Source: Anaerohalosphaeraceae bacterium (GTDB lineage: Bacteria > Planctomycetota > Phycisphaerae > Sedimentisphaerales > Anaerohalosphaeraceae). From it: 11,526 nt of DNA. The first letter of the stretch is position 1, and the number at the start of each line of letters is the position of its first letter. Positions 1 to 11,526 of this stretch are shown piece after piece. The DNA lies in the NCBI GenBank assembly GCA_050309605.1, contig JBNRMN010000046.1:1-11526 (forward strand), given 5' to 3'. The notes beneath the pieces are model-generated. The model saw nothing but the letters and a program-made list of their open reading frames with translations, was not told the origin of the DNA and searched no databases. The position numbers and the translations under genes were made by a program.

Positions 1-774
1 TATTATGCTCACGATCGGCTGGGCAGTGTGCGGCTGGTGGTTGTGCCGGAGTATGACCAGCAGCAACAAGCGTGGGTCGTCCGTGCGGCCAACAGCACTA
101 CCTATACGCCGTTCGGGCAGCTTTACGAGGGGCAGGCCGTCGAGACCCTCGCCAACCCCTGGAAGTTCACCGGCCAGTGGCACGACGTCGAAATCGACCA
201 ATACCACCTCCGCGCCCGCCAATACGACCCCGCCATGATGCGATTTACCAGCCGGGATCCGATTGTGGGAAAATCGAAACAGCCTTTGACATTACATAAA
301 TATATATATACAGCTAATGATCCTTTAAATCACGTAGATTTAACTGGTGAATCAATGGCAGCTATACTGGTTGAACCAATTATGGCAGGATATAGTGTAC
401 ATGGATTTGCTACCTCTGTTGTTGCACTTGGGGTAGCAAAAATGGATTGGGATATAATGAGCTTTGGAATTGAATTAGAAAAAACAATTCTACCCGTTAT
501 GGCGTTGTCGGTTGTAATGAGAAAAGGTTCATACAAGGACCCCTTTTATGAGGATTTTAAGCCGTATTTTGATGGTATGAACTCTAATCTAATGGGCGGT
601 GGCAGTGGAGGGAACTGGGGATGGCCAAAATGGGCTGCGTTAGCTGGTGGTGTCGCCTTGTTATCTGCTCAAATTCGTGGGTGCGATGATGTTTTGCGAG
701 GATTTAGAAAGTTTGACGAATTTCTTGACGATTTATTTGAACCAGAAAACTCAAGAATTACCCGTGACCCTTAA
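1..774 (+). CDS. Rhs repeat-associated core + C-terminal toxin tip (module 1, core type A); 5'-partial
   Basis: Frame 1 is open from base 1 (YYAHDRLGSVRLVV...). Rhs core motifs: YTPFG, NPWKFTGQWHD, YHLRARQYDP, RFTSRDP, LHKYIYTANDPLNHVDLTG. A hydrophobic/Gly-rich tip follows and GC drops after about 260. Confidence 0.92.
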   Translation, partial: YYAHDRLGSVRLVVVPEYDQQQQAWVVRAANSTTYTPFGQLYEGQAVETLANPWKFTGQWHDVEIDQYHLRARQYDPAMMRFTSRDPIVGKSKQPLTLHKYIYTANDPLNHVDLTGESMAAILVEPIMAGYSVHGFATSVVALGVAKMDWDIMSFGIELEKTILPVMALSVVMRKGSYKDPFYEDFKPYFDGMNSNLMGGGSGGNWGWPKWAALAGGVALLSAQIRGCDDVLRGFRKFDEFLDDLFEPENSRITRDP

Positions 775-1790: not shown

Positions 1791-1798
1791 GCAGTTGC

Positions 1799-1930
1799 TC
1801 TTTGAAAAAATGATACGTTTACGCCGATGCGCAGGTTCTGTGTCAGCGGCATCACGAGCCGGTTGATCCGGACTTCTATGATGCGTCGTACACCGTTCAC
1901 GACCGGCTGGGCAGTGTGCGGCTGGTGGTT
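1799..1930 (+). pseudogene. Disrupted upstream part of Rhs core of module 2
   Basis: Frame 2 reads SLKK*YVYADAQVLCQRHHEPVDPDFYDASYTVHDRLGSVRLVV. It is near-identical to 3543-3673, is interrupted at 1931 by a palindromic insertion, and is out of frame with 2044..2712. Confidence 0.85.
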
Positions 1931-2032
1931 AAGCTCCCCGCCTTTTGAAGGAGGGGTGGCCGTAAGGCCGGGGTGGTTGATAATACCCCCTCCCCCCTTC
2001 GGGGTACTCCCCCTTTTCAAGGGGGAGAGCTT
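1931..2032. repeat. ~100-bp GC-rich double-hairpin element (REPIN/MITE-like) inserted in the Rhs core
   Basis: Ends AAGCTC...GAGCTT are inverted. Internal hairpins: CCCCGCCTT/AAGGAGGGG, GGCC-GTAA-GGCC, CCCC-TTC-GGGG, CTCCCCCTT/AAGGGGGAG. The element is absent from the paralogous cores at about 40-80 and about 3670-3700. Confidence 0.8.
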
Positions 2033-2043
2033 TCGAGAGGGCG

Positions 2044-2712
2044 GTGCGGGCGGCCAACAGCTACACCTATACGCCGTTCGGGCAGCTTTACGAGGGGCAG
2101 GCCGTCGAGACCATCGCCAACCCGTGGAAGTTCACCGGCCAGTGGCACGACGCCGAGATCGACCAATACCACCTCCGCGCCCGCCAATACGACCCGACGA
2201 TGATGCGCTTCACCAGCAGGGATCCGGTGAGAGGAGAACAAAACGAGCCGTTGACATTGCACAAATATCTTTATTGTTTGAACACTCCAATCAACCGTGT
2301 TGATCCGACTGGTGAAATAAGTGCGACCAGTCTGGCGAGTGCGGTAATTACTGGGTATTCATTATATGGTCATGGTGTTAGTCTTGCTGCTTATTCTGTT
2401 GAGACTGGAGATGAGCGGTTTTGGCAACTTGCAGAGTTAACGTTTAATTTTATACCTGTTGCGATAACAGTTGCATCATTTAATCCTTATGGTCCTGCGA
2501 CGAATCTAGCAACATTTGCTGCTGTACGTTTAAACCAGATGGCCTATGGATCTACCACAGGCATGTCTACGGTACAAGGATTAGCAGTAGATCCTTTAGC
2601 ATTTTTGCTATACCGTGGTGTTATGGGTACTGCGCAGAAATATATTGGTACTGATGCAAATGATATGCAAAACTTCATGAGTTGGATGGGAGTAGATTGG
2701 TTGGATAGATAG
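2044..2712 (+). CDS. Orphan Rhs core remnant + C-terminal toxin tip (module 2, type A)
   Basis: NPWKFTGQWHDAEIDQYHLRARQYDP...LHKYLYCLNTPINRVDPTG followed by a unique hydrophobic tip. The GTG start is internal to the core and may not be used. Confidence 0.88.
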   Translation: MRAANSYTYTPFGQLYEGQAVETIANPWKFTGQWHDAEIDQYHLRARQYDPTMMRFTSRDPVRGEQNEPLTLHKYLYCLNTPINRVDPTGEISATSLASAVITGYSLYGHGVSLAAYSVETGDERFWQLAELTFNFIPVAITVASFNPYGPATNLATFAAVRLNQMAYGSTTGMSTVQGLAVDPLAFLLYRGVMGTAQKYIGTDANDMQNFMSWMGVDWLDR

Positions 2713-2714
2713 AT

Positions 2715-3497
2715 ATGAAGAAAAAAACAATATTTATTGTATACTCACTAATACTTTTTGTTACCATTATCATTTTCGAAACCGTCGCGAAAAGATTAGA
2801 ACCGAAATGGGGTAACAATCCGATAGAACAGCTATCCGGAATGTATATTGCCGCTATTTTTTACTTGGGATATGTACTTTATTCATGGAAATCTGATTTG
2901 CCTGAATTCCTAAAAAGATTTTCTATTTCTGTCCCCTTTGGAATGATGTTTTCGGTCTTTATAATGGTATTAGGGTATGATATTTATTGGAGTACATTAG
3001 CGGGAATGTTTTGTTCTATACTGTTGCTTTTGAAGACAGCGAACTGGAAAAAGCACTTTTTTATTATCATAGTGTCCTCTTGTGTGTTCAGCATATTTGG
3101 AACCTTGTTTTTTAGCTATTCGGGCGAATTACAAGTAATTTCATTTGCGTATCAAGGATTTCTACTCCTATGTTTTGTGCTAACTTTTAGTTTTCTTCTG
3201 CTCTATCTGGCGAAAATAGTGAAAGAGGAAAGAATTCCTGATCTCAAAGTAATTTTTATCCGATCCTTAAAATTCAGCATCGCTCTCAGCCTGTTTTTTT
3301 TCGTATACCTTGTCTTGAATTTCTACGACCGATTATCATTACCTTTTTCGGTACAACTACCGGTGAATACTTTGCTTGCGATTTTGTTTATTGCAATTGC
3401 TTACAAATTTGATCTTTTCTTAATTGAACAAAAAAAATTGTCAGAAAATATTATCTTGAGAAAATGTAAAGGGTGTCTTACTCAAAAATCTATCTGA
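2715..3497 (+). CDS. Putative immunity protein, polytopic membrane protein
   Basis: 260 aa, starts 2 nt after the toxin stop, with roughly 8 hydrophobic segments. The last codons (CLTQKSI*) lie within the IS-end-like motif at 3474. Confidence 0.78.
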   Translation: MKKKTIFIVYSLILFVTIIIFETVAKRLEPKWGNNPIEQLSGMYIAAIFYLGYVLYSWKSDLPEFLKRFSISVPFGMMFSVFIMVLGYDIYWSTLAGMFCSILLLLKTANWKKHFFIIIVSSCVFSIFGTLFFSYSGELQVISFAYQGFLLLCFVLTFSFLLLYLAKIVKEERIPDLKVIFIRSLKFSIALSLFFFVYLVLNFYDRLSLPFSVQLPVNTLLAILFIAIAYKFDLFLIEQKKLSENIILRKCKGCLTQKSI

Positions 3498-3517
3498 CCG
3501 CTAATTCAAGTGATTTG
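3474..3517 (+). repeat. Degenerate copy of the integrase-element terminus
   Basis: TGTCTTACTCAAAAATCTATCTGACCGCTAATTCAAGTGATTTG versus 9072-9115: 35/44 identical, ungapped (counted by hand). Confidence 0.8.
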
Positions 3518-3556
3518 TGAGGCCAGGACAGATCATTTTTGCTCTTTGAAAAGTGA

Positions 3557-3697
3557 TACGTTTACGCCGATGCGCAGGTGCTGTGTCAGCGGCATCACGA
3601 CCCGGTTGATCCGAACTTCTATGATGCGTCGTATTACGTTCACGATCGGCTGGGCAGTGTGCGGCTGGTGGTGTGGTAAGATGACGGGACGCAAACG
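3557..3697 (+). pseudogene. Upstream part of Rhs core of module 3 with in-frame stop
   Basis: YVYADAQVLCQRHHDPVDPNFYDASYYVHDRLGSVRLVVW*DDGTQT, in frame with 3698..4441; TAA at 3677-3679. Confidence 0.85.
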
Positions 3698-4441
3698 GTG
3701 CGGGCGGCCAACAGCTATACCTATACGCCGTTCGGGCAGCTTTACGAGGGACAGTGGGGCGAGACCATCGCCAACCCGTGGAAATTCACCGGCCAGTGGC
3801 ACGATGCCGAGATCGATCAATACCACCTCCGCGCCCGCCAATACGACCCCACCATGATGCGCTTCACCAGCAGGGATCCGGTGAGAGGCTTTCGCGAAAA
3901 TCCATTGACGTTGCATAAATATCTGTATTGTCTTAATGAACCAATAAATAAAATTGATCCAAGTGGTAAGTTTTTTTCCGGTTTATGGGCGAGAACAAAG
4001 AATGCAGTTGCTTGTGCTGGTGCTAAAAAAACCGTCACAGAATCAGTCATATGGAGTGCGTCTGTAGCGAATGGTTTAACACAAGGCTGGATAAATGTGT
4101 TATTTGGTCCCAGTGATATATCCGATAAAGCAGCGTTTTGGGTTGGCTTTGCAGCAGGTTTTGGTGAAATGCAAATAGGATTACGTACGGGAAGTGCTAC
4201 ATTGGCCACAACAGCGGCATCCACCTTTACTGCTGCCGCAAATTCAGCACTATCCAAAAGTTCAGATTTCTTAACTCTTAGAAATGCGATTAGTATTGGG
4301 ATATCAGCATCTGTTGGTGGTTTTGGCGACTGGGCAAGCGATAGCGCTATTGATGCGGTCACGTTATGGGCCATTGGAGTTGATGCAGCCCTGTTTTCCG
4401 GGCTTGGTCAAATGGGTTATGATGAAGTTTATGGAAAATGA
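3698..4441 (+). CDS. Orphan Rhs core remnant + Gly/Ala/Ser-rich hydrophobic toxin tip (module 3, type A)
   Basis: Core near-identical to module 2 up to RDPVRG, then PINKIDPSG and a small-residue-rich hydrophobic tip. Confidence 0.88.
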   Translation: MRAANSYTYTPFGQLYEGQWGETIANPWKFTGQWHDAEIDQYHLRARQYDPTMMRFTSRDPVRGFRENPLTLHKYLYCLNEPINKIDPSGKFFSGLWARTKNAVACAGAKKTVTESVIWSASVANGLTQGWINVLFGPSDISDKAAFWVGFAAGFGEMQIGLRTGSATLATTAASTFTAAANSALSKSSDFLTLRNAISIGISASVGGFGDWASDSAIDAVTLWAIGVDAALFSGLGQMGYDEVYGK

Positions 4442-4998
4442 TTATGCAGGATAATAAGGAAATCATATTTAATAAAAGCTTTTGTGTTTTCTTTTCTATT
4501 GTATATGGGAGTCTTTTTAGCTTGGCCATATCGCTTTCATTGTATTTATTGTATTTATCTATAAAAAATTTCTCGCTTTCGGAAATCAGTTCTAAAGAAA
4601 TTATAGCCCTTGGGTTCGGGTTATGCCTGGCTTTCATTTTTCTAATGCTTGCCAAGTCCATGTTCACAGACTTATGGGCATGTATAAGACTGTGTGGAAT
4701 TCATATTTCTCTGCATAAAGGTGGGCTTACAATAAGAAAGGGTTCACAAGAGCTTATTATTGACAGAGAAGAATCAAATGTGTTGTATTGTATGACAGGT
4801 TGGCTCATAATATGGCCTTCAAATATGATTCTTTTACGAAAGGGGTTTTTGCTATGGCATGGTAAGACAATTATTCCTTACTTCAAAGAAAAGATGAATT
4901 ATCTTGAGACAACTAAAGAAAAAAAACAATTAATAAAATCACTTTCTATCAATACCAATAATCCGATAAGGTATATTAAATGGCCTGATACTATATAG
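4438..4998 (+). CDS. Putative immunity protein (2 N-terminal TM segments + soluble domain)
   Basis: ATGA overlap with the toxin stop (translational coupling); 186 aa, AT-rich. Confidence 0.78.
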   Translation: MIMQDNKEIIFNKSFCVFFSIVYGSLFSLAISLSLYLLYLSIKNFSLSEISSKEIIALGFGLCLAFIFLMLAKSMFTDLWACIRLCGIHISLHKGGLTIRKGSQELIIDREESNVLYCMTGWLIIWPSNMILLRKGFLLWHGKTIIPYFKEKMNYLETTKEKKQLIKSLSINTNNPIRYIKWPDTI

Positions 4999-5081
4999 GT
5001 TTGGAGTAGCCAGCCATTTGCATATAAAAAGAGTAAATTTAACTGTGACTGTTCCAGGTTTTTCTTGTTGAGATTACACAT

Positions 5082-5300
5082 ATGCAGCCACAAAGAAGCC
5101 ATATCAAAAAGAAAAAACAATGGAATGTAGTGGCATGGTGTGTTTTACTTTTCTTAATTGTTGGTGCTGTTGTAGAGAGTTGGACAGGCTCTGGTATTTT
5201 TGTTGCGGCAGCAATTGCATTTTTGGCAGGTGAAGTCATCGTGAGACTATACCAACTTCTTGTGATATTTACCAAGAGAAAACGCCGAAAATATGATTGA
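5082..5300 (+). CDS. Small 2-TM hypothetical protein (possible orphan immunity/accessory)
   Basis: 72 aa, two hydrophobic helices flanked by basic clusters (KKKK, KRKRRK), co-oriented with the array. Confidence 0.55.
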   Translation: MQPQRSHIKKKKQWNVVAWCVLLFLIVGAVVESWTGSGIFVAAAIAFLAGEVIVRLYQLLVIFTKRKRRKYD

Positions 5301-5309
5301 GATCGACCG

Positions 5310-5454
5310 TGTCCTCTGCAAAAATCCATCTGACGGCTGAATTGGGTGATTTGGCTCGACGAGAAAACAGGAATTCGATCTTTGGCAACTAAAGATTGAT
5401 GGATTCGGGGCAGATTCCGAAGGCTCGAAGTCTGGATTTGAAGCGAATTTTCGG
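5310..5454 (-). mobile_element. 145-bp remnant of the integrase-element terminus downstream of the ORF
   Basis: Ungapped direct repeat of 9072-9216 with 8 mismatches in 145 nt. It begins exactly at the terminal TGT and is fused at CGG to Rhs core sequence. Confidence 0.92.
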
Positions 5455-6334
5455 CCTCGGCTCGGTCGCGGCTCTTTCACAATGGAATACTGCTGGCTCA
5501 CAGGTCGAGATTGTTGAGCGGTATCGCTATGACGATGTCTTTGGGCGGACGACGGTGTGCGACGGCAGCGGCACGCCGCTGGCGGTGAACGCGTCCGCCT
5601 ACGGCAACCCCATCCTGTTCACCGGCCGCAGGCTCGACGCCGAAACCGGCCTGTACGACTACCGCCACCGCATGTACAGCCCCGACCTGGGCCGCTTTCT
5701 CCAGACCGACCCGCTCGGCTACATCGACGGCATGAACCTCTACGCCTACGTCAACAACAACCCACTGAATTGGATCGACCCTTATGGCTTAAGTCGATGG
5801 ACAAACTTTCTTGAGTGGTCAGCCTCCCGAATTGAGAGTTTTGAAAATACAGGTTTCGCCAGTTACACCAATGATGTCAGAGAAATGTTAATCGGTGAGG
5901 CTCAGGGTGTTGGCGATGTGGCCGTAGGTGTGTATAATATGGTGCGGCATCCTGTTGAGACCGTCAAGGGTACTGCATCTGCCACTGCCACTGCGATTGT
6001 CAGCCCTGTAGAAACAGCAAAGGCGATAGGGAAAAAGTTGGTATGTAAAGGTCAGCAGCTATTAGGCGATGACCCGCGAGCCGCAGGCCGGGTAGTCGGC
6101 CAAGCGGCAGGAACAGCGGCGGTAACCGCAATAGGCGCAAAAGCAGGTAATTTTATTCATAGAGGAAAAGAATTCAGTATTGGAAATAATTTCAGGGTTG
6201 CGCCATTTGGAAACAGAACAGGACATCCTGTTGGAAGATGGCCTCATTACCATCGAAGAATATACGGTCCTGATGGTACAACTGTTCCGGGCGGTAGCAT
6301 GAATTGGCATCGTCCTTGGGAGAAAGGATGGTAA
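5396..6334 (+). CDS. Orphan Rhs core remnant + toxin tip (module 4, core type B); Rhs homology starts at 5453
   Basis: GLGSVAALS...YGNPILFTGRRLDAETGLYDYRHRMYSPDLGRFLQTDPLGYIDGMNLYAYVNNNPLNWIDPYG. The tip has HPVET/SPVET segments and a basic His-rich end (PHYHRR...WHRPWE). The first 19 codons are borrowed from the IS remnant. Confidence 0.9.
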   Translation: MMDSGQIPKARSLDLKRIFGLGSVAALSQWNTAGSQVEIVERYRYDDVFGRTTVCDGSGTPLAVNASAYGNPILFTGRRLDAETGLYDYRHRMYSPDLGRFLQTDPLGYIDGMNLYAYVNNNPLNWIDPYGLSRWTNFLEWSASRIESFENTGFASYTNDVREMLIGEAQGVGDVAVGVYNMVRHPVETVKGTASATATAIVSPVETAKAIGKKLVCKGQQLLGDDPRAAGRVVGQAAGTAAVTAIGAKAGNFIHRGKEFSIGNNFRVAPFGNRTGHPVGRWPHYHRRIYGPDGTTVPGGSMNWHRPWEKGW

Positions 6335-6339
6335 TTGAT

Positions 6340-6756
6340 ATGTACACACGTCTGATATTTATTGCTGATAAGTTCGGTGAAGATATCGGTATCTTTGGAT
6401 CTATCGAAGACGCAGCAGCACATTTGGAAGCTGTTGATGTCAGAAATGAAGAATATGTCGGTTTTGATAGCGATGGGAAACTTTTGAAGATAGAAGCCGA
6501 TAATAATAGGGTTTTTATATACCCTTCAGAAGATGTGGCGACTCACATCAAAGACTTAAAAGAAAGGTTGATAACATATCTTGAAGCTGTTGGAGAAGAA
6601 CTTGACGAAAATGTTAAACTCAGCCTTCCTTGCCTTGTGGAAATTAGCTCAAAATATAAATATGCCTGTCAAAAACCATCTCATATCATTAAAATATCTT
6701 TTTGTCAACTTTTCAGAAAACTTCTGTATATGCTACGCATAAACGATGATGGGTGA
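6340..6756 (+). CDS. Putative soluble immunity protein
   Basis: ATG 5 nt after the toxin stop (alternative ATG at 6328). Acidic N-terminal two-thirds (SIEDAAAHLEAVDVRNEEYVGFDSDG), complementary in charge to the basic toxin end. Confidence 0.75.
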   Translation: MYTRLIFIADKFGEDIGIFGSIEDAAAHLEAVDVRNEEYVGFDSDGKLLKIEADNNRVFIYPSEDVATHIKDLKERLITYLEAVGEELDENVKLSLPCLVEISSKYKYACQKPSHIIKISFCQLFRKLLYMLRINDDG

Positions 6757-6787
6757 CCTCGGCGAGAATGCAAATTAATCAATCGAT

Positions 6788-6808
6788 AATTGTCAATAGT
6801 CAATTGAA
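6788..6808. repeat. Heptamer short tandem repeat
   Basis: AATTGTC AATAGTC AATTGAA. Confidence 0.55.
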
Positions 6809-6812
6809 AACC

Positions 6813-6838
6813 TGTTCTCTGCAAAAATACATCTGACG
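6813..6838 (+). repeat. Short copy of the integrase-element terminus
   Basis: TGTTCTCTGCAAAAATACATCTGACG: 24/26 identical to 5310-5335. Runs directly into Rhs-coding sequence. Confidence 0.85.
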
Positions 6839-6951
6839 ACGGGTGGGGCCTGCATGCGTATGATTATGACCCGTCCTACCAACTGACCGAAGCGGATTAC
6901 GCCTACGATTCCTTCGGGCGGCGGCTGTCCAGGACCGTCGCGGCTACCGGC

Positions 6952-7848
6952 GTGACGACGGCGTATGTCTATGACGGGGCGCATGTCGTCGCCGAGTATG
7001 AGGATTCGGGAAGTGGAGCTGTTTTGGCGAGAATGTACGTCTATGGCCCCGGCCTGGATGAGCCGATAATGATGCTTGACGTAATCGGTCAAAGTCGTTA
7101 CTTTTACACGTGTGACGGGCTGGGTTCCGTCACGGCTCTTTCAAATATGAATGGACAGATCGTCGAGCGCTACGCCTACGACGCCTTCGGCAAGACGCAG
7201 ATTCTGGCTCCGAACTACGAACTAAGAACTACGAGCTTATACGGCAACCCCATCCTGTTCACCGGCCGCAGGCTCGACGCCGAATCCGGCTTCTATGACT
7301 ACCGCTTCCGTATGTACAGCCCCGATCTGGGCCGCTTCCTCCAGCCCGACCCGCTGGGCTATATCGACGGCATGAACCTCTACGCCTACGTCAACAACAA
7401 CCCCCTCAACTGGATTGATCCGTGGGGGTTGTGCAAGACCAACGAACCGACAAGACTTATTGGTCCAGATGTGGCTAAAGTAGCAAGGGATTTCTACAAT
7501 GACAGACTTTATGATGATAGTGGATGGCTTCCTTATAATGATGAATGGATGAGTGCAGACACATGGTTTCATTATAATAGGGGACGATATAAGTATGCTG
7601 GTAAGGAATATTGTGCTACACAAGTAAACTATATTGGCGTGGGAATGAGAGCCGCTCATGTGGGATTGCCGAGAGGTATGCTTCATATATATGTTGTAGG
7701 GCATAACCGAAAGCATAACCGCAATTGGGCTACGAGAGGAGAGCATTTCTGGGCAAGCTGGGGTTACGATTATTATTTGCGAAACTATGAACCTGATGAT
7801 CGAAATACTGGAATGCATAAAAGGAAACACTATGGGCGTAAAAAATAG
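6952..7848 (+). CDS. Orphan Rhs core remnant + toxin tip (module 5, type B); Rhs homology extends upstream in frame to ~6835
   Basis: In-frame upstream DDGWGLHAYDYDPSYQLTEADYAYDSFGRRLSRT. Core motifs: YVYDG, YVYGPGLDEP, DGLGSV, FTGRRLD, NNNPLNWIDPWG. 7240-7421 is a close repeat of 5600-5781. Confidence 0.92.
   Translation: MTTAYVYDGAHVVAEYEDSGSGAVLARMYVYGPGLDEPIMMLDVIGQSRYFYTCDGLGSVTALSNMNGQIVERYAYDAFGKTQILAPNYELRTTSLYGNPILFTGRRLDAESGFYDYRFRMYSPDLGRFLQPDPLGYIDGMNLYAYVNNNPLNWIDPWGLCKTNEPTRLIGPDVAKVARDFYNDRLYDDSGWLPYNDEWMSADTWFHYNRGRYKYAGKEYCATQVNYIGVGMRAAHVGLPRGMLHIYVVGHNRKHNRNWATRGEHFWASWGYDYYLRNYEPDDRNTGMHKRKHYGRKK
7212..7232. repeat. In-frame heptamer tandem repeat inside Rhs core loop
   Basis: GAACTAC GAACTAA GAACTAC (encodes NYELRTT). 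Confidence 0.65.
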
Positions 7849-8470
7849 AATATTTCATATAGGTTCTATAGGTTTGTTGGTAGCGGTTTCAGGTGGACTA
7901 TTTATGTTTGTCACTGGCCAGATATTATCTTATCGCGAAGGCTATAGCTTGAGCGGCAATATTATGGCTGCTCAAATAATAATTTTTTACTCTTATATTT
8001 TAATATGTGCATTATTTTCGCTATTGATGTTGATTAAATCCATTTGGGATATAATCAAATGGCGAAAGAAATGGTTTTGGGACATTTTAATTTGCTTATG
8101 CATTTTGCTTGTTTGCTTCTTGGCAATAGAGATGCAAAGCATTGGGACACCCTATGAAAAGGGTTTTCGTAAAAGGATTACACAAGAAATTGATCCAGCC
8201 TCTCTACGTTTGTTTTTGAAGTCAAGTCAAACACTTGCAGGAAGTATATTAACTGAGGAACAATATCCTGATAACATTCACGAGTTAAAACCTAATAAAT
8301 ATGTCAAAATCGATCAAGATCGAAATGGTTACTTTTTGAGATTAGTTTGGGGAAGCCCTTTTGGATATTTTGGAATTGCTCTCGGGCAAGAAGACTGGAT
8401 ACCTTCTGGTAATTCTTTTGAAGAATTTAGCGAAATGGATAAAGGATTGTATTTCTGGAGAGAGAATTAA
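7832..8470 (+). CDS. Putative immunity protein (3 N-terminal TM segments + soluble domain)
   Basis: ATG at 7832 with AAGGA 6 nt upstream; overlaps the toxin end by 17 nt; 212 aa. Confidence 0.78.
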   Translation: MGVKNRIFHIGSIGLLVAVSGGLFMFVTGQILSYREGYSLSGNIMAAQIIIFYSYILICALFSLLMLIKSIWDIIKWRKKWFWDILICLCILLVCFLAIEMQSIGTPYEKGFRKRITQEIDPASLRLFLKSSQTLAGSILTEEQYPDNIHELKPNKYVKIDQDRNGYFLRLVWGSPFGYFGIALGQEDWIPSGNSFEEFSEMDKGLYFWREN

Positions 8471-8632
8471 ATTGGACTTATGTTTTGTCATACTGTATTG
8501 GTTCAGCGACGGGTGGCCTATGCAAGATTGATAAATAATCAATCGCAATGGGTGTTAAGGTTGCGGATTGACAGTACGAATTGTAAGGGTATAATCGGGA
8601 ACATAAAACGCTCTTTGGCAACTTGGATGTTG

Positions 8633-8695
8633 GTAGTCCACGCTTCAGTGATTTTTTAGAAGGTTCCTGTTTCAACAAGCTGAAGCTTGAACTAC
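8633..8695. repeat. Inverted pair of GTAG-type REP sequences (REPIN-like)
   Basis: + strand GTAGTCCACGCTTCAG (8633) and - strand GTAGTTCAAGCTTCAGCTTG (8695-8676); 14/16 identical. The latter contains the CAAGC/GCTTG palindrome. Confidence 0.7.
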
Positions 8696-8702
8696 GAGCG
8701 GT

Positions 8703-8724
8703 GATGGGCTAAAGCCCATCCTAC
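8703..8724 (-). repeat. GTAG-type REP of a second family
   Basis: - strand GTAG-GATGGGC-TTTA-GCCCATC: GTAG tetranucleotide followed by a perfect 7-bp hairpin. Confidence 0.8.
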
Positions 8725-8734
8725 GCTTGGCGGG

Positions 8735-9071
8735 TACTACGCGATGCGTTGGGGTCGATTCGGGTGCTGTCGGATGCGGACGGCGTGGAGACGGTCTATG
8801 TCTATGACGGGGCGCAGATGATTGCCGAATACGTCCTTGTCAGCAGTGAATTGTCCTTGCGCAAACGCTTTGTTTACGGCCCCGGGATTGATGAGCCGAT
8901 TGCGATGATTTTGGTTGACGCCGGTCAGGAATTCTGGTATTTTTACCACACAGACGGCCTCGGCTCGGTCGTGGCTCTTTCACAATGGAATACCTCGCAG
9001 GTCCAGATCGTCGAGCGGTATGTGTATGACGCCTTCGGGAAATGTCAAATTCTGACCTCTGACTTCTACCC
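8735..9071 (+). pseudogene. Truncated Rhs core fragment (module 6, type B) with no toxin tip
   Basis: YY/DALGSIRVLSDADG, YVYDGAQMIAEY, FVYGPGIDEP, YHTDGLGSVVALS, YVYDAFG. Cut off at 9072 by the integrase-element end, before YGNP/FTGR. Confidence 0.88.
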
Positions 9072-10325
9072 TGTCCTACGCAAAAATCCATCTGACGGCT
9101 GAATTGGGTGATTTGGCTCGACGAGAAAACAGGAATTTGATCTTTGGCAACTAAAGATGGATGGATTCGGGGCAGATTCCGAAGGCTCGAAGTCTGGATT
9201 TAAGGCGTTTTTTCGGTATCGGTGCAGACGGCGGGTGTGGTGACAGTGGGGCGTCCACGATTTACGCGACGCGGGTGTAGATGTGATGCAGGCCGCCAAG
9301 GATGGGCTTGCTCACAATTTCACCTTCGGCTTGCACCGGACGGGAAACAGGCGAATCCTTATTGAGCGACAAGTGCGGGCGGGCGACGTTGTAATAGGTG
9401 TCGATGTAGTCGGTCAGCACGGAACGCAGATGTTCTTCGTTCAAGATGATGACATGATTCAGGCACTCCCTGCGTAACGTCCCGATGACCCGTTCGGCAA
9501 AGGGGTTTTGCCATGGCGAATGCGGTGCGGTGGGTGTGTCTTTGAGGCCGAAACGTGTGATGGTTTGCTTGAATTCCTCGCTGAAGATGCCGTCGTTGTC
9601 ACGAATCACATACTTTGTCGTCGTGTCAAAGTCAAAGGTCTGGCGAAGCTGCTGGATGGCCCACTCGGAATGCGGCCTGTCGGTGACGCCCCAATGCAGG
9701 ATTTTTCGCCGGTCGTGTGAGATGGCCACATAAACATAGAGGGCCTTAAAGAACATCGTCCGAACGACAAGGAAGTCAATTCCGACGGTATGTTTGGCGT
9801 GATTTTTCAGGAAGGTCCGCCACCGCTGGCGTTTGTCGGCATCGGGTTTGGGCTTACCCATGTATTTGAGAACGGTATTGTCGCTGACAGTCATTCCAAG
9901 TTTTGCCAGTTCCCCCTGAATCCGTTGGGCCGACCATGTTGGGTTCTCGTTGTGCATGCGTCGGATGAGCTTTATGAGCGGCCAATCGATGCATGGACGT
10001 CCGGCAAGCCGGGACTTCCATTTCCAATAGAGCCTGAATCCCTGGCGGTGCCAGCCGATGACCGTATCCGGCCGGACGATCACTAAAGCTTTCTTCCAGC
10101 CGGAAAAGACCCGCGATAACCAGACCATCAGGATGCGATCTCGCGGCATCAATTTGGGGCGTCTTGCCGACCGCAGGCAGATGACCAACTGTTGACGCAA
10201 TAGGGCATTTTCCAACAGCAGGTTCTTGCGTGTTTGGAACAGGCTCCACAAGAGCTTTACAAGGCCGATCAGCATAATCCCTCTGTGGTTTTGGAGTATC
10301 AAAAAAAGTGATTATATCGTGAGGT
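9072..10325 (-). mobile_element. IS481-like (rve DDE) insertion element; end at 9072 well defined, upstream end uncertain
   Basis: The - strand ends ...GATGGATTTTTGCGTAGGACA at 9072, exactly where Rhs homology stops and where the 5310 repeat starts. No convincing inverted partner end or TSD was seen; the upstream boundary is a guess. Confidence 0.65.
9262..10275 (-). CDS. Integrase core (rve) domain DDE transposase, IS481/IS3-related, single ORF
   Basis: HTH (NPTWSAQRIQGELAKLG), catalytic D (VGIDFLVV), D (IRDNDGIF), E (QNPFAERVIGTLRRECL), YN..RPHLSL, C-terminal GGLHHIY. ATG at 10275 is preceded by AGAGGG; no disruptions. Confidence 0.93.
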   Translation of the reverse strand: MLIGLVKLLWSLFQTRKNLLLENALLRQQLVICLRSARRPKLMPRDRILMVWLSRVFSGWKKALVIVRPDTVIGWHRQGFRLYWKWKSRLAGRPCIDWPLIKLIRRMHNENPTWSAQRIQGELAKLGMTVSDNTVLKYMGKPKPDADKRQRWRTFLKNHAKHTVGIDFLVVRTMFFKALYVYVAISHDRRKILHWGVTDRPHSEWAIQQLRQTFDFDTTTKYVIRDNDGIFSEEFKQTITRFGLKDTPTAPHSPWQNPFAERVIGTLRRECLNHVIILNEEHLRSVLTDYIDTYYNVARPHLSLNKDSPVSRPVQAEGEIVSKPILGGLHHIYTRVA

Positions 10326-10339
10326 TGTGCTGTCGAAAA
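10311..10339 (-). promoter_or_regulatory. Candidate sigma70 promoter for the integrase
   Basis: Perfect TATAAT (10316-10311) with only a weak -35 (TTTTCG) 17 nt upstream; the -35 lies in an end-like motif. Confidence 0.4.
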
Positions 10340-10354
10340 GGAGCGGTCAATGAA

Positions 10355-10759
10355 TTATTGAAGCTTGGTGAGGAATTGACGCGGGGTGATGATGTCCGTA
10401 TCCAAAAAGGTGCCGAGTTTGAGCAGGTGTTTGTCGCCGCTGACCAGATAATGACTTTTAGAGAGCATCGCACAGGCCAGGAATTTGTCGTCGTCGGGAT
10501 CTTCACAGATCGGCTGTTCAAACGTATAATCGGCGACCATCTCCGCTTCGATGACGATCCGCTCCAAAATGGGAGCCAAGTCAATGTCGCCCAGCTTTTC
10601 AGAAAGCGTCTCAATAACCCGTTTGTATTCGTGGAGAATGACTTCCGAGACTGCCATAACGAATTGGCCGTCATCCCACGCTTTGAGAATCCGGTATGGC
10701 GGTCCGCTGAAAAACAGGCCGGACACAAAGACATTGGTATCGATGACGGCCTTGAGCAT
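10355..10759 (-). CDS. PIN-domain toxin (VapC-like) of type II TA system
   Basis: MLKAVIDTNVFVSG...ILHEY...CEDPDDDKFLACA...LVSGDKHLL, with conserved acidic PIN residues. TAATG overlap with the antitoxin. Confidence 0.93.
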   Translation of the reverse strand: MLKAVIDTNVFVSGLFFSGPPYRILKAWDDGQFVMAVSEVILHEYKRVIETLSEKLGDIDLAPILERIVIEAEMVADYTFEQPICEDPDDDKFLACAMLSKSHYLVSGDKHLLKLGTFLDTDIITPRQFLTKLQ

Positions 10760-11025
10760 TACTTTCTGCCCCGCACTTCCGCAATGGCATTCGTGACATC
10801 GCCGGGTTCCAGCCCCGTTGCCTTGGCGGTCTTGCGAGCCTTGGCCAGAAGTCCAGCAAACTCTTTTTTGGAGGGGGAGGAAATGGTTTTCAGGATCACC
10901 GCATCTTTTTCGCCCAGAACCAAAAACTGGCAGCCGCTTTCCAGTCCCAGGGTTTTACGTATGGATTCGGGGATAACGACCTGCCCCTTTGAAGACATTT
11001 TAGTTGTGGATAGATTGGCTATCAT
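10759..11025 (-). CDS. AbrB/MazE/SpoVT-family antitoxin
   Basis: TTKMSSKGQVVIPESIRKTLGL signature. ATG at 11025 with GAGGA 7 nt upstream gives 88 aa; the 143-aa ORF call is over-extended. Confidence 0.92.
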   Translation of the reverse strand: MIANLSTTKMSSKGQVVIPESIRKTLGLESGCQFLVLGEKDAVILKTISSPSKKEFAGLLAKARKTAKATGLEPGDVTNAIAEVRGRK

Positions 11026-11049
11026 TTTTATATCCTCATAAAACAACAA

Positions 11050-11100
11050 AATCTTATTTCTTACTTTTAAGATTATACGATCAGCCCCGCTGCTTAGCAA
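11050..11100 (-). promoter_or_regulatory. Sigma70 promoter and likely autorepression operator of the TA operon
   Basis: TTGCTA (11100-11095)-N17-TATAAT (11077-11072). Inverted repeat AATCTTA (11050-11056)/TAAGATT (11068-11074) overlaps the -10. Confidence 0.75.
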
Positions 11101-11254
11101 GTGAAAAGTCGCATTTTCAAAAAATCCGGATAGGAAAGCCCCAGAAGCAGTGCTGCTTTCGGTCCATTTGGCCAACAAACATGTCGGCATTATCCGAACA
11201 ATAAACCGCTACAAGTACTCTACTGCTTTCACTCCCCCAAAACCGGTGCGCTTC

Positions 11255-11300
11255 ACGCAATGAATGCTATGGGGTGCAATGGGACGCAATAAATGCAATG
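11255..11300 (+). repeat. Five helically phased 8-mers (RYGCWATR)
   Basis: ACGCAATG 11255, ATGCTATG 11264, GTGCAATG 11274, ACGCAATA 11284, ATGCAATG 11293. Confidence 0.65.
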
Positions 11301-11403
11301 AAAATCGGATTTCTCTTGGCTTATCGCGCGGAATATAGACCCTTGTGGCCAAAGAGGTTACGGCAAATCGCGACAGTTCGCGATGGACCGAGCGGGCATC
11401 GGA

Positions 11404-11444
11404 TCACACCCGTGAGGTCACAGGTTCGAATCCTGTATCGCCCA
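11404..11444 (+). other. 3' fragment of tRNA-Val(CAC), probable att site of an integrated island
   Basis: TCACAC-CCGTG-AGGTC-ACAGG-TTCGAAT-CCTGT-ATCGCCC-A: anticodon loop, 3' stem, variable loop, perfect T arm and 3' acceptor strand. No complementary GGGCGAT or D arm upstream. Confidence 0.82.
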
Positions 11445-11526
11445 GTGATGTAAGTTACGCTGAAATCGGAAGTTGCGATTACCTGCCAATGTGTAGAGCG
11501 GCCGTAACCTTGCTTTAAAAACCGGT

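What the first reader, a model, noticed from the sequence alone, without database searches (positions are those of the whole stretch)
3474..10340. Rhs toxin/immunity modules punctuated by same-orientation copies of a DDE-integrase terminus: candidate integron-like cassette system
Seen: the motif TGTyyTmykCAAAAATmyATCTGACs occurs in one orientation at 3474 (44 nt), 5310 (145 nt), 6813 (26 nt) and 9072 (the end next to an intact rve integrase). The first three sit at or just after the 3' end of the last gene of a module (overlapping its stop, 9 nt after it, 56 nt after it) and shortly or immediately before the next Rhs core fragment. All copies begin at the same TGT, upstream flanks are unrelated, and no inverted copy was seen. 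Established: orphan Rhs arrays are normally explained by homologous recombination through core remnants, and IS481/IS3-type ends are TG..CA inverted repeats. Inference: random IS scars should not share orientation and junction position. The integrase may add or shuffle units of [end-core-tip-immunity], analogous to attC cassettes but with DDE chemistry, or it may insert repeatedly at the growing edge of the array and then be deleted.
Basis: partly seen in the sequence, partly recalled or inferred. Interest (0 to 1): 0.85.

Follow-up and report, generated by a model that had tools for sequence, protein, structure and literature searches.

The report
IS end stubs between Rhs modules
Short leftover right ends of an ordinary insertion sequence sit between the toxin-immunity modules of an Rhs array, most likely as scars of recombination and not as the sites of a new cassette-capturing system.

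Summary
The motif occurs four times on the + strand (0 expected). A profile also finds stubs before Rhs core fragments on C82 and C2.

The motif is the right end (IRR) of a 1.33-kb rve/DDE insertion sequence. Relatives about 70% identical have normal imperfect inverted ends. The window copy has an intact integrase but no recognisable left end, and none was found in the genome.

- Right ends of this family tend to abut the 3' end of a gene that reads towards them. Several such genes in relatives are ordinary ones. This accounts for orientation and position without a cassette mechanism.
- One IS-to-core joint recurs in three modules here, in another species and in metagenome contigs.
- A metagenome variant breaks synteny inside core homology, not at TGT.
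- The ends have no conserved fold.

Best reading (0.6): an IS caps Rhs modules. Illegitimate joints between its right end and Rhs core leave stubs, and these spread as linkers by homologous recombination.

Left open: strong enrichment in Rhs loci, tandem stubs, and purifying selection on the integrase without a left end. An integron-like DDE system is not supported (about 0.07).

The parts
1..774 (+). 3' end of Rhs core type 1 (1-330) with toxin tip 1. The first 51 nt equal the ends of C39 (intact rhs, open frame of at least 3151 aa) and of C82 (orphan module).
   Evidence: TIGR03696 E 3.7e-21; contig overlaps
786..1790 (+). TPR protein, presumed immunity or accessory gene of module 1
   Evidence: Pfam TPR_2 and related families; the role is inferred from position
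1795..1812 (+). IS-interior remnant that lacks the TGT terminus. It has the same IS/core joint as 3538-3557 and is followed by core fragment 1813-1929.
   Evidence: Repeat D4; alignment to the G001:C59 linker; too short to score on its own
1930..2038 (.). Short dispersed repeat (MITE-like) inserted in the core fragment of module 2
   Evidence: More than 20 blastn hits across the genome
2039..2712 (+). Core type 1 end and tip 2
   Evidence: TIGR03696 E 6.3e-23
2715..3497 (+). Membrane protein, presumed immunity 2. Its last codons and stop come from the IS stub. The homologue in G001:C59 runs about 20 codons further (my count from the printed sequence).
3474..3557 (+). Stub 1: IS right end, positions 1-83, from a diverged IS lineage
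   Evidence: nhmmer E 1.6e-12; orthologous junction in L154
3558..4441 (+). Core type 1 fragments (3558-3672, 3693-3949) and tip 3
   Evidence: Repeats D1, D4 and D5; TIGR03696 E 6.9e-22
4438..5300 (+). Two small ORFs (4438-4998 and 5082-5300), presumed immunity genes of module 3
   Evidence: ORF list; no Pfam family; the role is inferred
5310..5461 (+). Stub 2: IS right end, positions 1-152; 98% identical to the resident IS over 122 nt
5452..6334 (+). Core type 2 fragment and tip 4. 5452-5490 is 97% identical to 8955-8993.
   Evidence: Repeats D7 and D2; TIGR03696 E 1.3e-25
6340..6756 (+). Presumed immunity 4
   Evidence: ORF list; no Pfam family
6813..6840 (+). Stub 3: IS right end, positions 1-28. 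The following ACGGGTG is shared with the tandem stub of G002:C86.
   Evidence: nhmmer E 0.0046
6841..7848 (+). Core type 2 and tip 5
   Evidence: TIGR03696 E 1.8e-25
7787..8470 (+). Membrane protein, presumed immunity 5
   Evidence: ORF list; only weak Pfam hits
8749..9071 (+). Core type 2 fragment cut off by the IS
   Evidence: Repeats D8-D11; weak RHS_repeat hit
9072..10302 (-). IS copy. The right end is at 9072, followed by 190 nt of non-coding sequence. The integrase gene is 9262-10275 (337 aa, DDE residues intact). No left inverted repeat is present.
   Evidence: Pfam rve_3 E 5.8e-15; NCBIfam IS3 and IS481 models below their cut-offs; invariant D167, D226 and E261; no left end
10355..11041 (-). 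PIN toxin (10355-10759) and MazE/AbrB-type antitoxin (10759-11041), directly upstream of the integrase. The same junction is present in G004.
   Evidence: Pfam PIN_3 E 1.6e-18 and MazE_antitoxin E 2.2e-4; 90.5% identity over 1225 nt
11400..11446 (+). 3' part of tRNA-Val(CAC), from the anticodon stem onward. This is an island boundary.
   Evidence: Loose end in run X6; intact tRNA on C50

Best explanation
The repeated motif is the right inverted repeat of an ordinary DDE insertion sequence of about 1.33 kb, with a single integrase ORF and an IS481/IS3-like transposase.

In this lineage the IS tends to lie just behind a gene that reads towards it. It therefore often caps the last immunity gene of an Rhs module.

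Arrays then grow by the known routes, which are C-terminal displacement, homology-facilitated illegitimate recombination, or unequal crossing-over. One breakpoint falls in Rhs core homology. The other falls at an arbitrary place within the first 20 to 230 nt of the capping IS.

Each such event keeps the immunity|TGT junction and leaves a stub of variable length fused to a core fragment. Orientation is fixed because the cap is always convergent with the Rhs genes.

Once formed, stub plus core fragment is a linker that is copied and exchanged by homologous recombination, within a genome and between genomes. The transposase is not needed for any of these steps.

Shown: the identity of the motif, the stub anatomy, shared joints, the bias to gene 3' ends, and a synteny break inside core. 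Inferred: the order of events and the recombination route.
For: 1. Identity of the motif.
- 9072 is followed by 190 nt and then the stop of an rve integrase.
- Copies 68-71% identical in other Planctomycetota (L007, L008, L010) are 1326-1334 bp long. Their ends read TGTCCTAC.CAAAAAT in inverted orientation.
- More than 7000 relatives exist. Sources name several of them transposases, and many of the listed ones lie on 1.1-1.7 kb contigs.

2. Stubs are collinear with the IS from its position 1. The aligned ranges are 1-83, 1-152 and 1-28.

3. General bias to gene 3' ends.
- At 11 of 24 right-end junctions, an ORF of at least 150 aa that reads towards the IS ends within -90 to +60 nt of TGT.
- On the other strand this holds at 0 of 24 junctions.
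- At random oriented positions it holds at 11.5%.
- In relatives the upstream genes include a RhaT-like transporter, a GntR/LacI-type regulator, a response regulator and an Exo_endo_phos protein.

4. Spread by recombination.
- The same joint..GCTCTTTGAAAA.TGA|TACGTTTACGCC.., occurs at 3557/3558, at 1812/1813, at C82:86113 and in G001:C59. Variants occur in L154 and L156.
- L154 is 92% identical to window 2114-3672, including imm2|stub 1. It then continues with the short repeat, a core, a tip not found in this genome, and a 51-nt stub. The break is inside core homology.

5. The stubs come from different IS lineages. Stub 2 is 98% identical to the resident IS over 122 nt. Stub 1 matches it at only 20 of the first 26 nt.

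6. Stubs are not a general feature of Rhs arrays.
- Across 14 regions from 9 relatives, only G001:C55 (E 3.3e-5) and G007:C63 (E 0.009, weak) have a stub next to a core.
- The G037 array with 9 core ends has none.

7. [quoted passage not shown] It also proposes homology-facilitated illegitimate recombination for such arrays (PMC5361080, passages).
Against: 1. The enrichment in Rhs loci is stronger than a passive model predicts unless hitch-hiking with modules is assumed.
- In this genome 6 of 8 profile hits lie directly in arrays.
- At least 7 different genes abut TGT inside arrays, counting the window, C82, L153, L154 and L156.

2. The integrase has been under purifying selection while lacking a left end. 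G000 and G004 share the PIN|integrase junction, yet dN/dS is 0.166 at dS 0.29. This hints at a retained activity.

3. Tandem same-orientation stubs occur in three independent forms:
- a stub of about 28-31 nt directly before a second end, in G002:C86, L157 and contigs of X5 and X6;
- a 22-nt stub before a 79-nt stub in L156/L160;
- a piece covering positions 41-88 just outside the end in L006.
These suggest repeated arrival at the same spot.

4. No target-site duplication was seen in 4 of 4 two-ended copies.

5. Short homology does not explain the type 1 joint. The best IS-to-core matches in the main rhs gene lie elsewhere for 13 of 13 IS variants tested.

6. The bias statistic uses junctions that are not all independent, and 5 of the 24 had under 700 nt of upstream sequence.
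Confidence: 0.6

Rival explanations
1. Repeated insertion at the array edge. The IS prefers its own right end, or the place it marks, as a target. It arrives repeatedly in the same orientation, and each older copy is reduced to a stub by deletion or by recombination between copies. Rhs core fragments are joined later. It overlaps with the best explanation, differing mainly in how the immunity|TGT junctions and the nested stubs arise.
For: - Tandem stubs: a stub of about 28-31 nt followed directly by a second TGT end occurs in G002:C86, in L157, and as a joint 5335>5309 with ACGG between in contigs of X5 (depth 21.8) and X6.
- A 22-nt stub is followed by a 79-nt stub in L156/L160.
- A second weak right-end hit, covering positions 41-88, lies just outside the IS end in L006.
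- Targeting of their own ends by IS30 and IS911 is recalled from the literature and was not looked up here.
Against: - The window itself has no tandem stub.
- The resident copy has no left end, and the genome holds no other integrase of this lineage.
- Stubs 1 and 2 come from clearly different IS lineages.
- It does not by itself explain why core fragments follow the stubs.
Confidence: 0.2
2. An integron-like system with DDE chemistry. The integrase uses the IRR as a recombination site to capture, shuffle or excise units of [end-core-tip-immunity].
For: - Same orientation at every Rhs-associated end seen: 5 in the window, plus C82, C2, G001:C55, L153, two in L154, and L156.
- An intact DDE triad.
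- Purifying selection on an integrase that lacks a left end, next to the array.
- Conservation of the first 26 nt across 24 ends.
Against: - DDE transposases join 3'-OH termini to targets. The variable joints lie inside the IS, at positions 28, 83 and 152, so they are not products of terminal strand transfer.
- Core fragments do not start with an end-like sequence.
- No conserved fold: 0 predicted pairs in 24 ends.
- The same ends occur behind ordinary genes.
- One joint is shared by several modules and species, which implies copying and not fresh catalysis.
- The mapped polymorphism breaks inside core.
- Several Rhs arrays of relatives have no stubs.
Confidence: 0.07
3. The stubs are kept because they are useful as portable homology. 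Core on the left and IS end on the right flank each tip-immunity pair, so modules can be swapped between strains by double homologous recombination whatever the chromosomal context.
For: - Near-identical stub sequence follows other upstream flanks in other samples. Two contigs of X5 have loose ends with different sequence directly before 5310.
- The imm2|stub 1 junction is conserved at 92% between the window and L154, while the neighbouring modules differ.
- Stubs are enriched in arrays.
Against: - Stubs of 22-28 nt are too short for efficient homologous recombination.
- Stub lineages differ by about 25-30%.
- The one mapped break lies in core, not in a stub.
- No test of selection on stubs was possible.
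Confidence: 0.12
4. Assembly artefact: the joints are chimeric paths through repeats in a metagenome assembly.
For: - The window is a whole 11.5-kb contig of a 97-contig genome.
- Both of its ends lie in repeats.
Against: - Independent Logan contigs of X1 bridge 3474-3557, 6813 and 9072 with 0 differences.
- L154, from another data set, carries the same imm2|stub 1|core joint.
Confidence: 0.02

Closest known systems
Rhs C-terminal displacement and orphan rhs-CT/rhsI arrays (Jackson et al. 2009, PMC2935791, passages read; Koskiniemi et al. 2014, cited in PMC4927057, not read)
   Same: - An intact rhs gene (C39) is followed by core fragments.
- Each core fragment carries a different AT-rich tip and a small downstream ORF.
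- The core fragments supply the homology for exchange.
   Different: The linkers between modules carry oriented stubs of one IS family. Two core types are joined into one array.
[quoted passage not shown] 2016, PMC4927057, passages read)
   Same: Mobile-element genes and remnants are interspersed with tandem toxin/immunity modules on a genomic island.
   Different: - Here they are solo ends of 28-152 nt, not genes.
- All have one polarity and all start at the exact IS terminus.
- I did not find this detail described in the 2 answered literature searches or in the passages I read.
Homology-facilitated illegitimate recombination as the route to immunity-gene arrays (Kirchberger et al. 2017, PMC5361080, passages read)
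   Same: One crossover falls in conserved sequence and the other is an illegitimate joint. The resident module is retained downstream.
   Different: The illegitimate joint repeatedly falls in the right end of a capping IS. This is inferred and was not shown experimentally.
IS481/IS3-type insertion sequences
   Same: - A single rve DDE transposase of about 340 aa.
- Element length about 1.33 kb.
- Imperfect inverted repeats that begin with TGT.
   Different: - Scores fall below both NCBIfam cut-offs: IS3 99 bits against 160, IS481 89 bits against 224.
- No target-site duplication in 4 of 4 copies.
- The lineage in the window has no left end in 2 of 2 independent loci.
Integron (IntI, attI, attC cassettes)
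   Same: Only the outward look: an integrase at one edge of a one-directional array of short gene units separated by a repeated element.
   Different: - The integrase is DDE, not a tyrosine recombinase.
- The repeats have no conserved hairpin.
- The units are gene fragments with their own homology.
- The repeats are truncated at variable internal positions.
H-rpt (ISAs1-family) elements inside E. coli Rhs elements; IS30 and IS911 targeting of their own ends (both recalled, not looked up here)
   Same: - An IS family habitually found inside Rhs loci.
- Insertion next to an existing IS end, which gives tandem ends.
   Different: The IS family is different. I tested no mechanism, so this resemblance is only a lead.

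Membership tests
Rhs orphan toxin/immunity array | Rhs-associated core domain directly before a variable C-terminal tip | tested here: met
   TIGR03696 above its cut-off in 5 of 5 tip-bearing ORFs tested, E 3.7e-21 to 1.3e-25
Rhs orphan toxin/immunity array | A full-length rhs gene upstream that shares core sequence with the fragments | tested here: met
   C39 ends in an open frame of at least 3151 aa. Its last 51 nt equal the start of the window. The link rests on this contig overlap only.
Rhs orphan toxin/immunity array | Cognate immunity function of the downstream ORFs | not testable with these tools
   No Pfam family for 5 of 7 downstream ORFs. The role is inferred from position.
IS481/IS3-like insertion sequence | DDE (rve) transposase with an intact catalytic triad | tested here: met
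   rve_3 E 5.8e-15. D167, D226 and E261 are invariant in 14 sequences. Assigning them to the triad is my reading of their spacing.
IS481/IS3-like insertion sequence | Score above the curated family cut-off | tested here: not met
   NF033516 (IS3) 99 bits against a cut-off of 160; NF033577 (IS481) 89 bits against 224
IS481/IS3-like insertion sequence | Terminal inverted repeats | tested here: met
   Met in relatives L007, L008, L010 and the 152-bp derivative in L123. Not met for the window copy, which has no left end.
IS481/IS3-like insertion sequence | Target-site duplication | tested here: not met
   No direct repeat flanks any of the 4 two-ended copies
Integron | IntI tyrosine recombinase | tested here: not met
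   The only integrase is an rve DDE protein
Integron | attC-like imperfect hairpin at each cassette border | tested here: not met
   RNAalifold on 24 ends gave 0 pairs and a consensus structure energy of 0 kcal/mol. RNA parameters were used; no DNA-parameter test was run.
One-ended or surrogate-end transposition unit (ISEcp1-like) | An intact left end, an end-like sequence at the far border of the mobilised DNA, and a target duplication around the unit | tested here: not met
   No left end in the genome. The core fragments start with TACG, CCTC and ACGG, not with an end-like TGT.

The most novel reading that the evidence does not exclude
The integrase has lost its left end but has been kept under purifying selection. 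It sits at the distal edge of the array and still acts on right ends. By one-ended strand transfer, or by capturing DNA that carries an IRR, it brings new IS-capped [core-tip-immunity] units next to existing stubs. The IRR would then work as a portable docking site for toxin cassettes, giving a DDE-driven counterpart of cassette capture. The tandem same-orientation stubs and the strong enrichment of ends in Rhs loci would be its footprints.
Probability: 0.1. Interest if true: 0.8.

Novelty: new variant of a known kind. Interest (0 to 1): 0.4.

Why it matters
How orphan toxin-immunity modules are added without losing the resident one is still argued only from sequence patterns. These arrays carry dated, oriented markers at each joint, the IS stubs. 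The markers show three things:
- at least five independent illegitimate IS-to-core joints;
- the same linker copied into several modules and species;
- a strain polymorphism that breaks inside core.

This is direct anatomical support for recombination-based growth. It is also a caution against reading same-orientation IS ends as a recombination system.

The open points make a small, testable question about IS biology in Planctomycetota. They are the integrase under selection without a left end, the tandem stubs, and the missing target duplications.

Tried and rejected
1. Short homology as the cause of the joints.
- The IS interior (positions 68-80, GCTCTTTGAAAA) resembles core DNA at the type 1 joint and at the C2 and G001:C55 joints.
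- The best IS-to-core match in the 9.5-kb main gene lies elsewhere for 13 of 13 IS variants. I do not claim it as the cause.

2. A further IS remnant in 8471-8748. A 12-nt exact match at 8612 scores 24 against a shuffle maximum of 25, so it is not significant.

3. The short repeat at 6748-6785 and 8508-8545 as IS-derived. It has copies on C53, C73 and C90 in both orientations and no match in IS loci, so it is a separate element.

4. An Rhs core next to the IS in G004. No tool supported it, so I dropped the claim. For G012 (L128) a 25-aa piece does match the core at E 9e-6.

5. A left end hidden upstream of MazE. I saw none by eye in 11041-11230, and the profile found none.

6. Rfam on the window, L003 and L004 gave 0 matches at E<=1. 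ARAGORN found no tRNA in the window.

7. Promoter and terminator scans showed nothing at the stubs.

8. Depth over the integrase is zero in contigs of X5 and near zero in X6. This is not used as evidence, because contigs cannot show absence.

9. The first control for the gene-end bias, at a threshold of 70 aa, was too permissive (38%). I replaced it with a 150-aa threshold.

10. Two look-ups of earlier findings of this scan returned nothing.

11. Three weak 1-31 hits in marine metagenome loci (L155, L158, L162) and the sites at C10:67475, C10:215, C55 and C71 from the 26-mer search were not followed up.

Full report
**What is in the window**

The window is a whole contig (C46) of a 3.4-Mb, 97-contig genome. 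Its closest relatives by the integrase and by DNA are Phycisphaerae and Sedimentisphaerales metagenome bins.

It starts inside an Rhs core. Its first 51 nt equal the ends of two contigs. C39 ends in an open frame of at least 3151 aa that is the intact rhs gene. C82 ends in an orphan module.

Five tip-bearing ORFs carry the Rhs-associated core domain, with E from 3.7e-21 to 1.3e-25. Each is followed by one or two small AT-rich ORFs, most with no Pfam family.

Two core types are present:
- type 1 at 1-330, 1813-2295 and 3558-3949;
- type 2 at 5452-5790, 6841-7431 and 8749-9071.

After the last core fragment come, in order:
- an rve integrase on the minus strand (9262-10275);
- a PIN/MazE pair;
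- a repeat of about 250 nt;
- the 3' part of tRNA-Val(CAC).

**The observation**

The motif has exactly four matches, all on the + strand, with none in 200 shuffles.

A profile of 13 right ends shows that the copies are collinear with the IS from its first base. It aligns 3474-3556 to positions 1-83, 5310-5461 to positions 1-152, 6813-6840 to positions 1-28, and 9072 onward to the full end.

The same profile finds four more sites in the genome:
- C82:86053-86117, directly before a type 1 core fragment;
- C2:783-840, before another Rhs core fragment;
- C29:13509-13317, a 195-nt remnant;
- C83:733-600.

C29 and C83 also carry Rhs cores 2-3 kb upstream in the same reading direction.

An 18-nt piece of IS interior without the terminus lies at 1795-1812.

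Logan contigs of run X1 cross the joints at 3474-3557, 5310 (left side), 6813 and 9072 without a difference. A metagenome contig from another data set (L154) carries the same imm2|stub|core joint. The joints are real.

**What the motif is**

In three Planctomycetota loci the integrase is 68-71% identical to the window's (L007, L008, L010). There the element is 1326-1334 bp long.

The left end reads TGTCCTACTCAAAAATTCGAAC and lies about 130 nt before the start codon. The right end has the window's type and lies about 190 nt after the stop. By my count from the printed ends, 14-15 of the first 22 positions match in inverted orientation. L123 holds a 152-bp derivative with both ends.

The protein has more than 7000 relatives at E<=1e-20. 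Sources name several of them transposases, and many of the listed ones lie on contigs of 1.1-1.7 kb. It scores below the NCBIfam cut-offs for IS3 and IS481. D167, D226 and E261 are invariant in 14 sequences. This is an ordinary insertion sequence of an uncurated branch.

Two things are odd:
- None of the 4 two-ended copies has a target-site duplication.
- The window's lineage has no recognisable left end. In the window and in G004 (91% identical) the PIN gene ends 77 nt before the integrase start. In L006, L159 and L161 (85-88% identical) a different flank begins right at the start codon. A left-end profile finds nothing in the whole genome at E<=10.

**Why one orientation, and why behind the last gene**

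I collected 24 right-end junctions from this genome, from relatives and from other bins.

At 11 of them, an ORF of at least 150 aa that reads towards the IS ends within -90 to +60 nt of TGT. On the opposite strand the count is 0 of 24. At random oriented positions it is 11.5%.

In several cases the ORF runs into the end and stops at a TGA within the first 24-53 nt. The upstream genes in relatives include a RhaT-like transporter, a GntR/LacI-type regulator, a response regulator and an Exo_endo_phos protein. On C83 the upstream gene is an arabinofuranosidase.

The junctions are not all independent, and 5 had little upstream sequence.

Whether this reflects target choice or survival of harmless insertions I cannot tell.

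**How the stubs relate to array growth**

The right border of each stub is a joint between IS interior and Rhs core. These joints lie at different IS positions: about 28, 83 and 152 in the window, about 67-80 in C2 and G001:C55, and about 165 in a contig of X5 and X6 and probably in G007:C63. They also lie at different core positions. Terminal strand transfer by a transposase cannot make such joints.

One joint, ..GCTCTTTGAAAA.TGA|TACGTTTACGCC.., is present at five or more places:
- 3557/3558 and 1812/1813 in the window;
- C82:86113;
- G001:C59, where no TGT terminus precedes the linker;
- as variants in L154 and L156.

A joint made once has therefore been copied into several modules and genomes, as expected if stub plus core fragment acts as a homologous linker.

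L154 is 92% identical to window 2114-3672. It then continues with the short dispersed repeat, a core, a tip not found in this genome, a 51-nt stub and a chromosomal gene. The synteny break lies inside core homology, and the imm2|TGT junction is conserved.

The stubs come from different IS lineages. Stub 2 is 98% identical to the resident IS over 122 nt. Stub 1 matches it at only 20 of the first 26 nt, and its 83 nt are recognised through the family profile.

Stubs are not a general feature of Rhs arrays in the family. Across 14 regions from 9 relatives, only G001:C55 and, weakly, G007:C63 have one next to a core. An array with 9 core ends in G037 has none.

**Best explanation**

An IS that tends to sit convergent behind genes caps Rhs modules. 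New modules are added by displacement, homology-facilitated illegitimate recombination or unequal crossing-over.

One breakpoint falls in core. The other falls somewhere in the first 20-230 nt of the cap. This keeps the immunity|TGT junction, leaves a stub, and fixes the orientation.

Later exchange uses the linkers as homology. This agrees with the published models for orphan arrays and with the statement that such arrays carry intervening transposase and integrase genes (PMC2935791, PMC5361080 and PMC4927057; passages read).

I give it 0.6.

**What this does not explain**

1. Enrichment. In this genome 6 of 8 profile hits lie in arrays. In 16 metagenome loci, 4 of the 7 loci with truncated ends also hold an Rhs core (L153, L154, L156, L160). 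Hitch-hiking of stubs with modules can produce this. At least seven different genes abut TGT within arrays, however, so many separate cappings are needed.

2. Tandem stubs of one polarity occur in three forms. They point to repeated arrival at an existing end.

3. Selection on the integrase. G000 and G004 share the junction that lacks the left end. Since their split the integrase has dN/dS 0.166 at dS 0.29, while the 190-nt right-end region is only 74% identical. The protein has therefore been kept under selection without a canonical partner end.

These points keep a catalysed, IRR-centred process alive at about 0.1.

**Tests of the integron analogy**

- The integrase is DDE.
- 24 ends share sequence in the first 26 nt but have no predicted pairs.
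- Core fragments do not begin with an end-like sequence.
- No second end closes any module.

I tested short homology between the IS interior and core as a cause of the joints. It did not stand up for the type 1 joint.

**Verdict**

The exotic interpretation is not supported. The ordinary one explains most, but not all, of the pattern.

Noticed in passing
window 11175-11428; also C58:856-1074, C79:293-532, C29:13238-13109: A repeat of about 250 nt. It holds five tandem 9-10-nt units containing GCAATG, a promoter-like TTGGCT..TATAGA, and a perfect 7-bp hairpin. In three copies it ends with the first 29 nt of the tRNA-Val 3' part. In three loci it lies next to a DDE transposase or its remnant. 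It looks like the arm and core of an attachment site of an integrative element, but no tyrosine integrase was seen and Rfam has no match.
   Followed up: partly
window 11400-11526 and C50:1-156: The last 127 nt of the window equal the start of C50, which holds an intact tRNA-Val(CAC). The window has only the 3' part, from the anticodon stem onward. Occupied and empty forms of the site, or a duplication, are both in the assembly graph.
   Followed up: partly
L005 (G004:C89) 380-470: In G004 the same IS-PIN-MazE-repeat block (90% identical) is followed by what reads as the 3' part of a different tRNA, by eye only.
   Followed up: no
window 1930-2038: A short G+C-rich dispersed repeat with more than 20 partial copies in the genome, and depth above 500 in run X1. 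It is inserted in the core fragment of module 2. L154 has it in the corresponding core fragment after stub 1.
   Followed up: partly
window 6748-6785 and 8508-8545; C53, C73, C90: A 40-60-nt repeat ending in AATAATCAATCG occurs just after two immunity genes and at other sites in both orientations. In contigs of X5 and X6 it directly follows an IS right end truncated near position 165.
   Followed up: partly
window 8568-8595: A perfect sigma-70 consensus (TTGACA, 16 nt, TATAAT) on the + strand, in the 278-nt spacer before the last core fragment.
   Followed up: no
L007, L008, L010, L123: No target-site duplication flanks any of the four two-ended copies of this IS family.
   Followed up: partly
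C83:1-560 (minus strand), continuing into C58:10-657: A second transposase of the same superfamily, 39% identical over 71 aa, lies next to the C83 stub in the opposite orientation. It appears to run across the C83/C58 contig ends and is followed on C58 by the 250-nt repeat and a 1514-aa ORF that ends in an Rhs core.
   Followed up: partly
L128 (G012:C252) 1535-1609: In another genus a full IS right end abuts a 25-aa Rhs core fragment (E 9e-6 to window core residues 37-57). The junction falls at about the core position where orphan fragments of G001:C55 and C2 begin.
   Followed up: partly
L120 (G003:C26) 1448-1539: A solo end is followed by sequence complementary to it and a run of T. By eye this looks like a terminator-like hairpin built on the IS end.
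   Followed up: no
L006 about 255-285 (the same sequence is in L159 and L161): About 95 nt upstream of the integrase start lies a sequence similar to the right end in direct, not inverted, orientation (GATGGATTTTT shared, about 20 of 27 positions by eye). It may be the end of a neighbouring copy.
   Followed up: no
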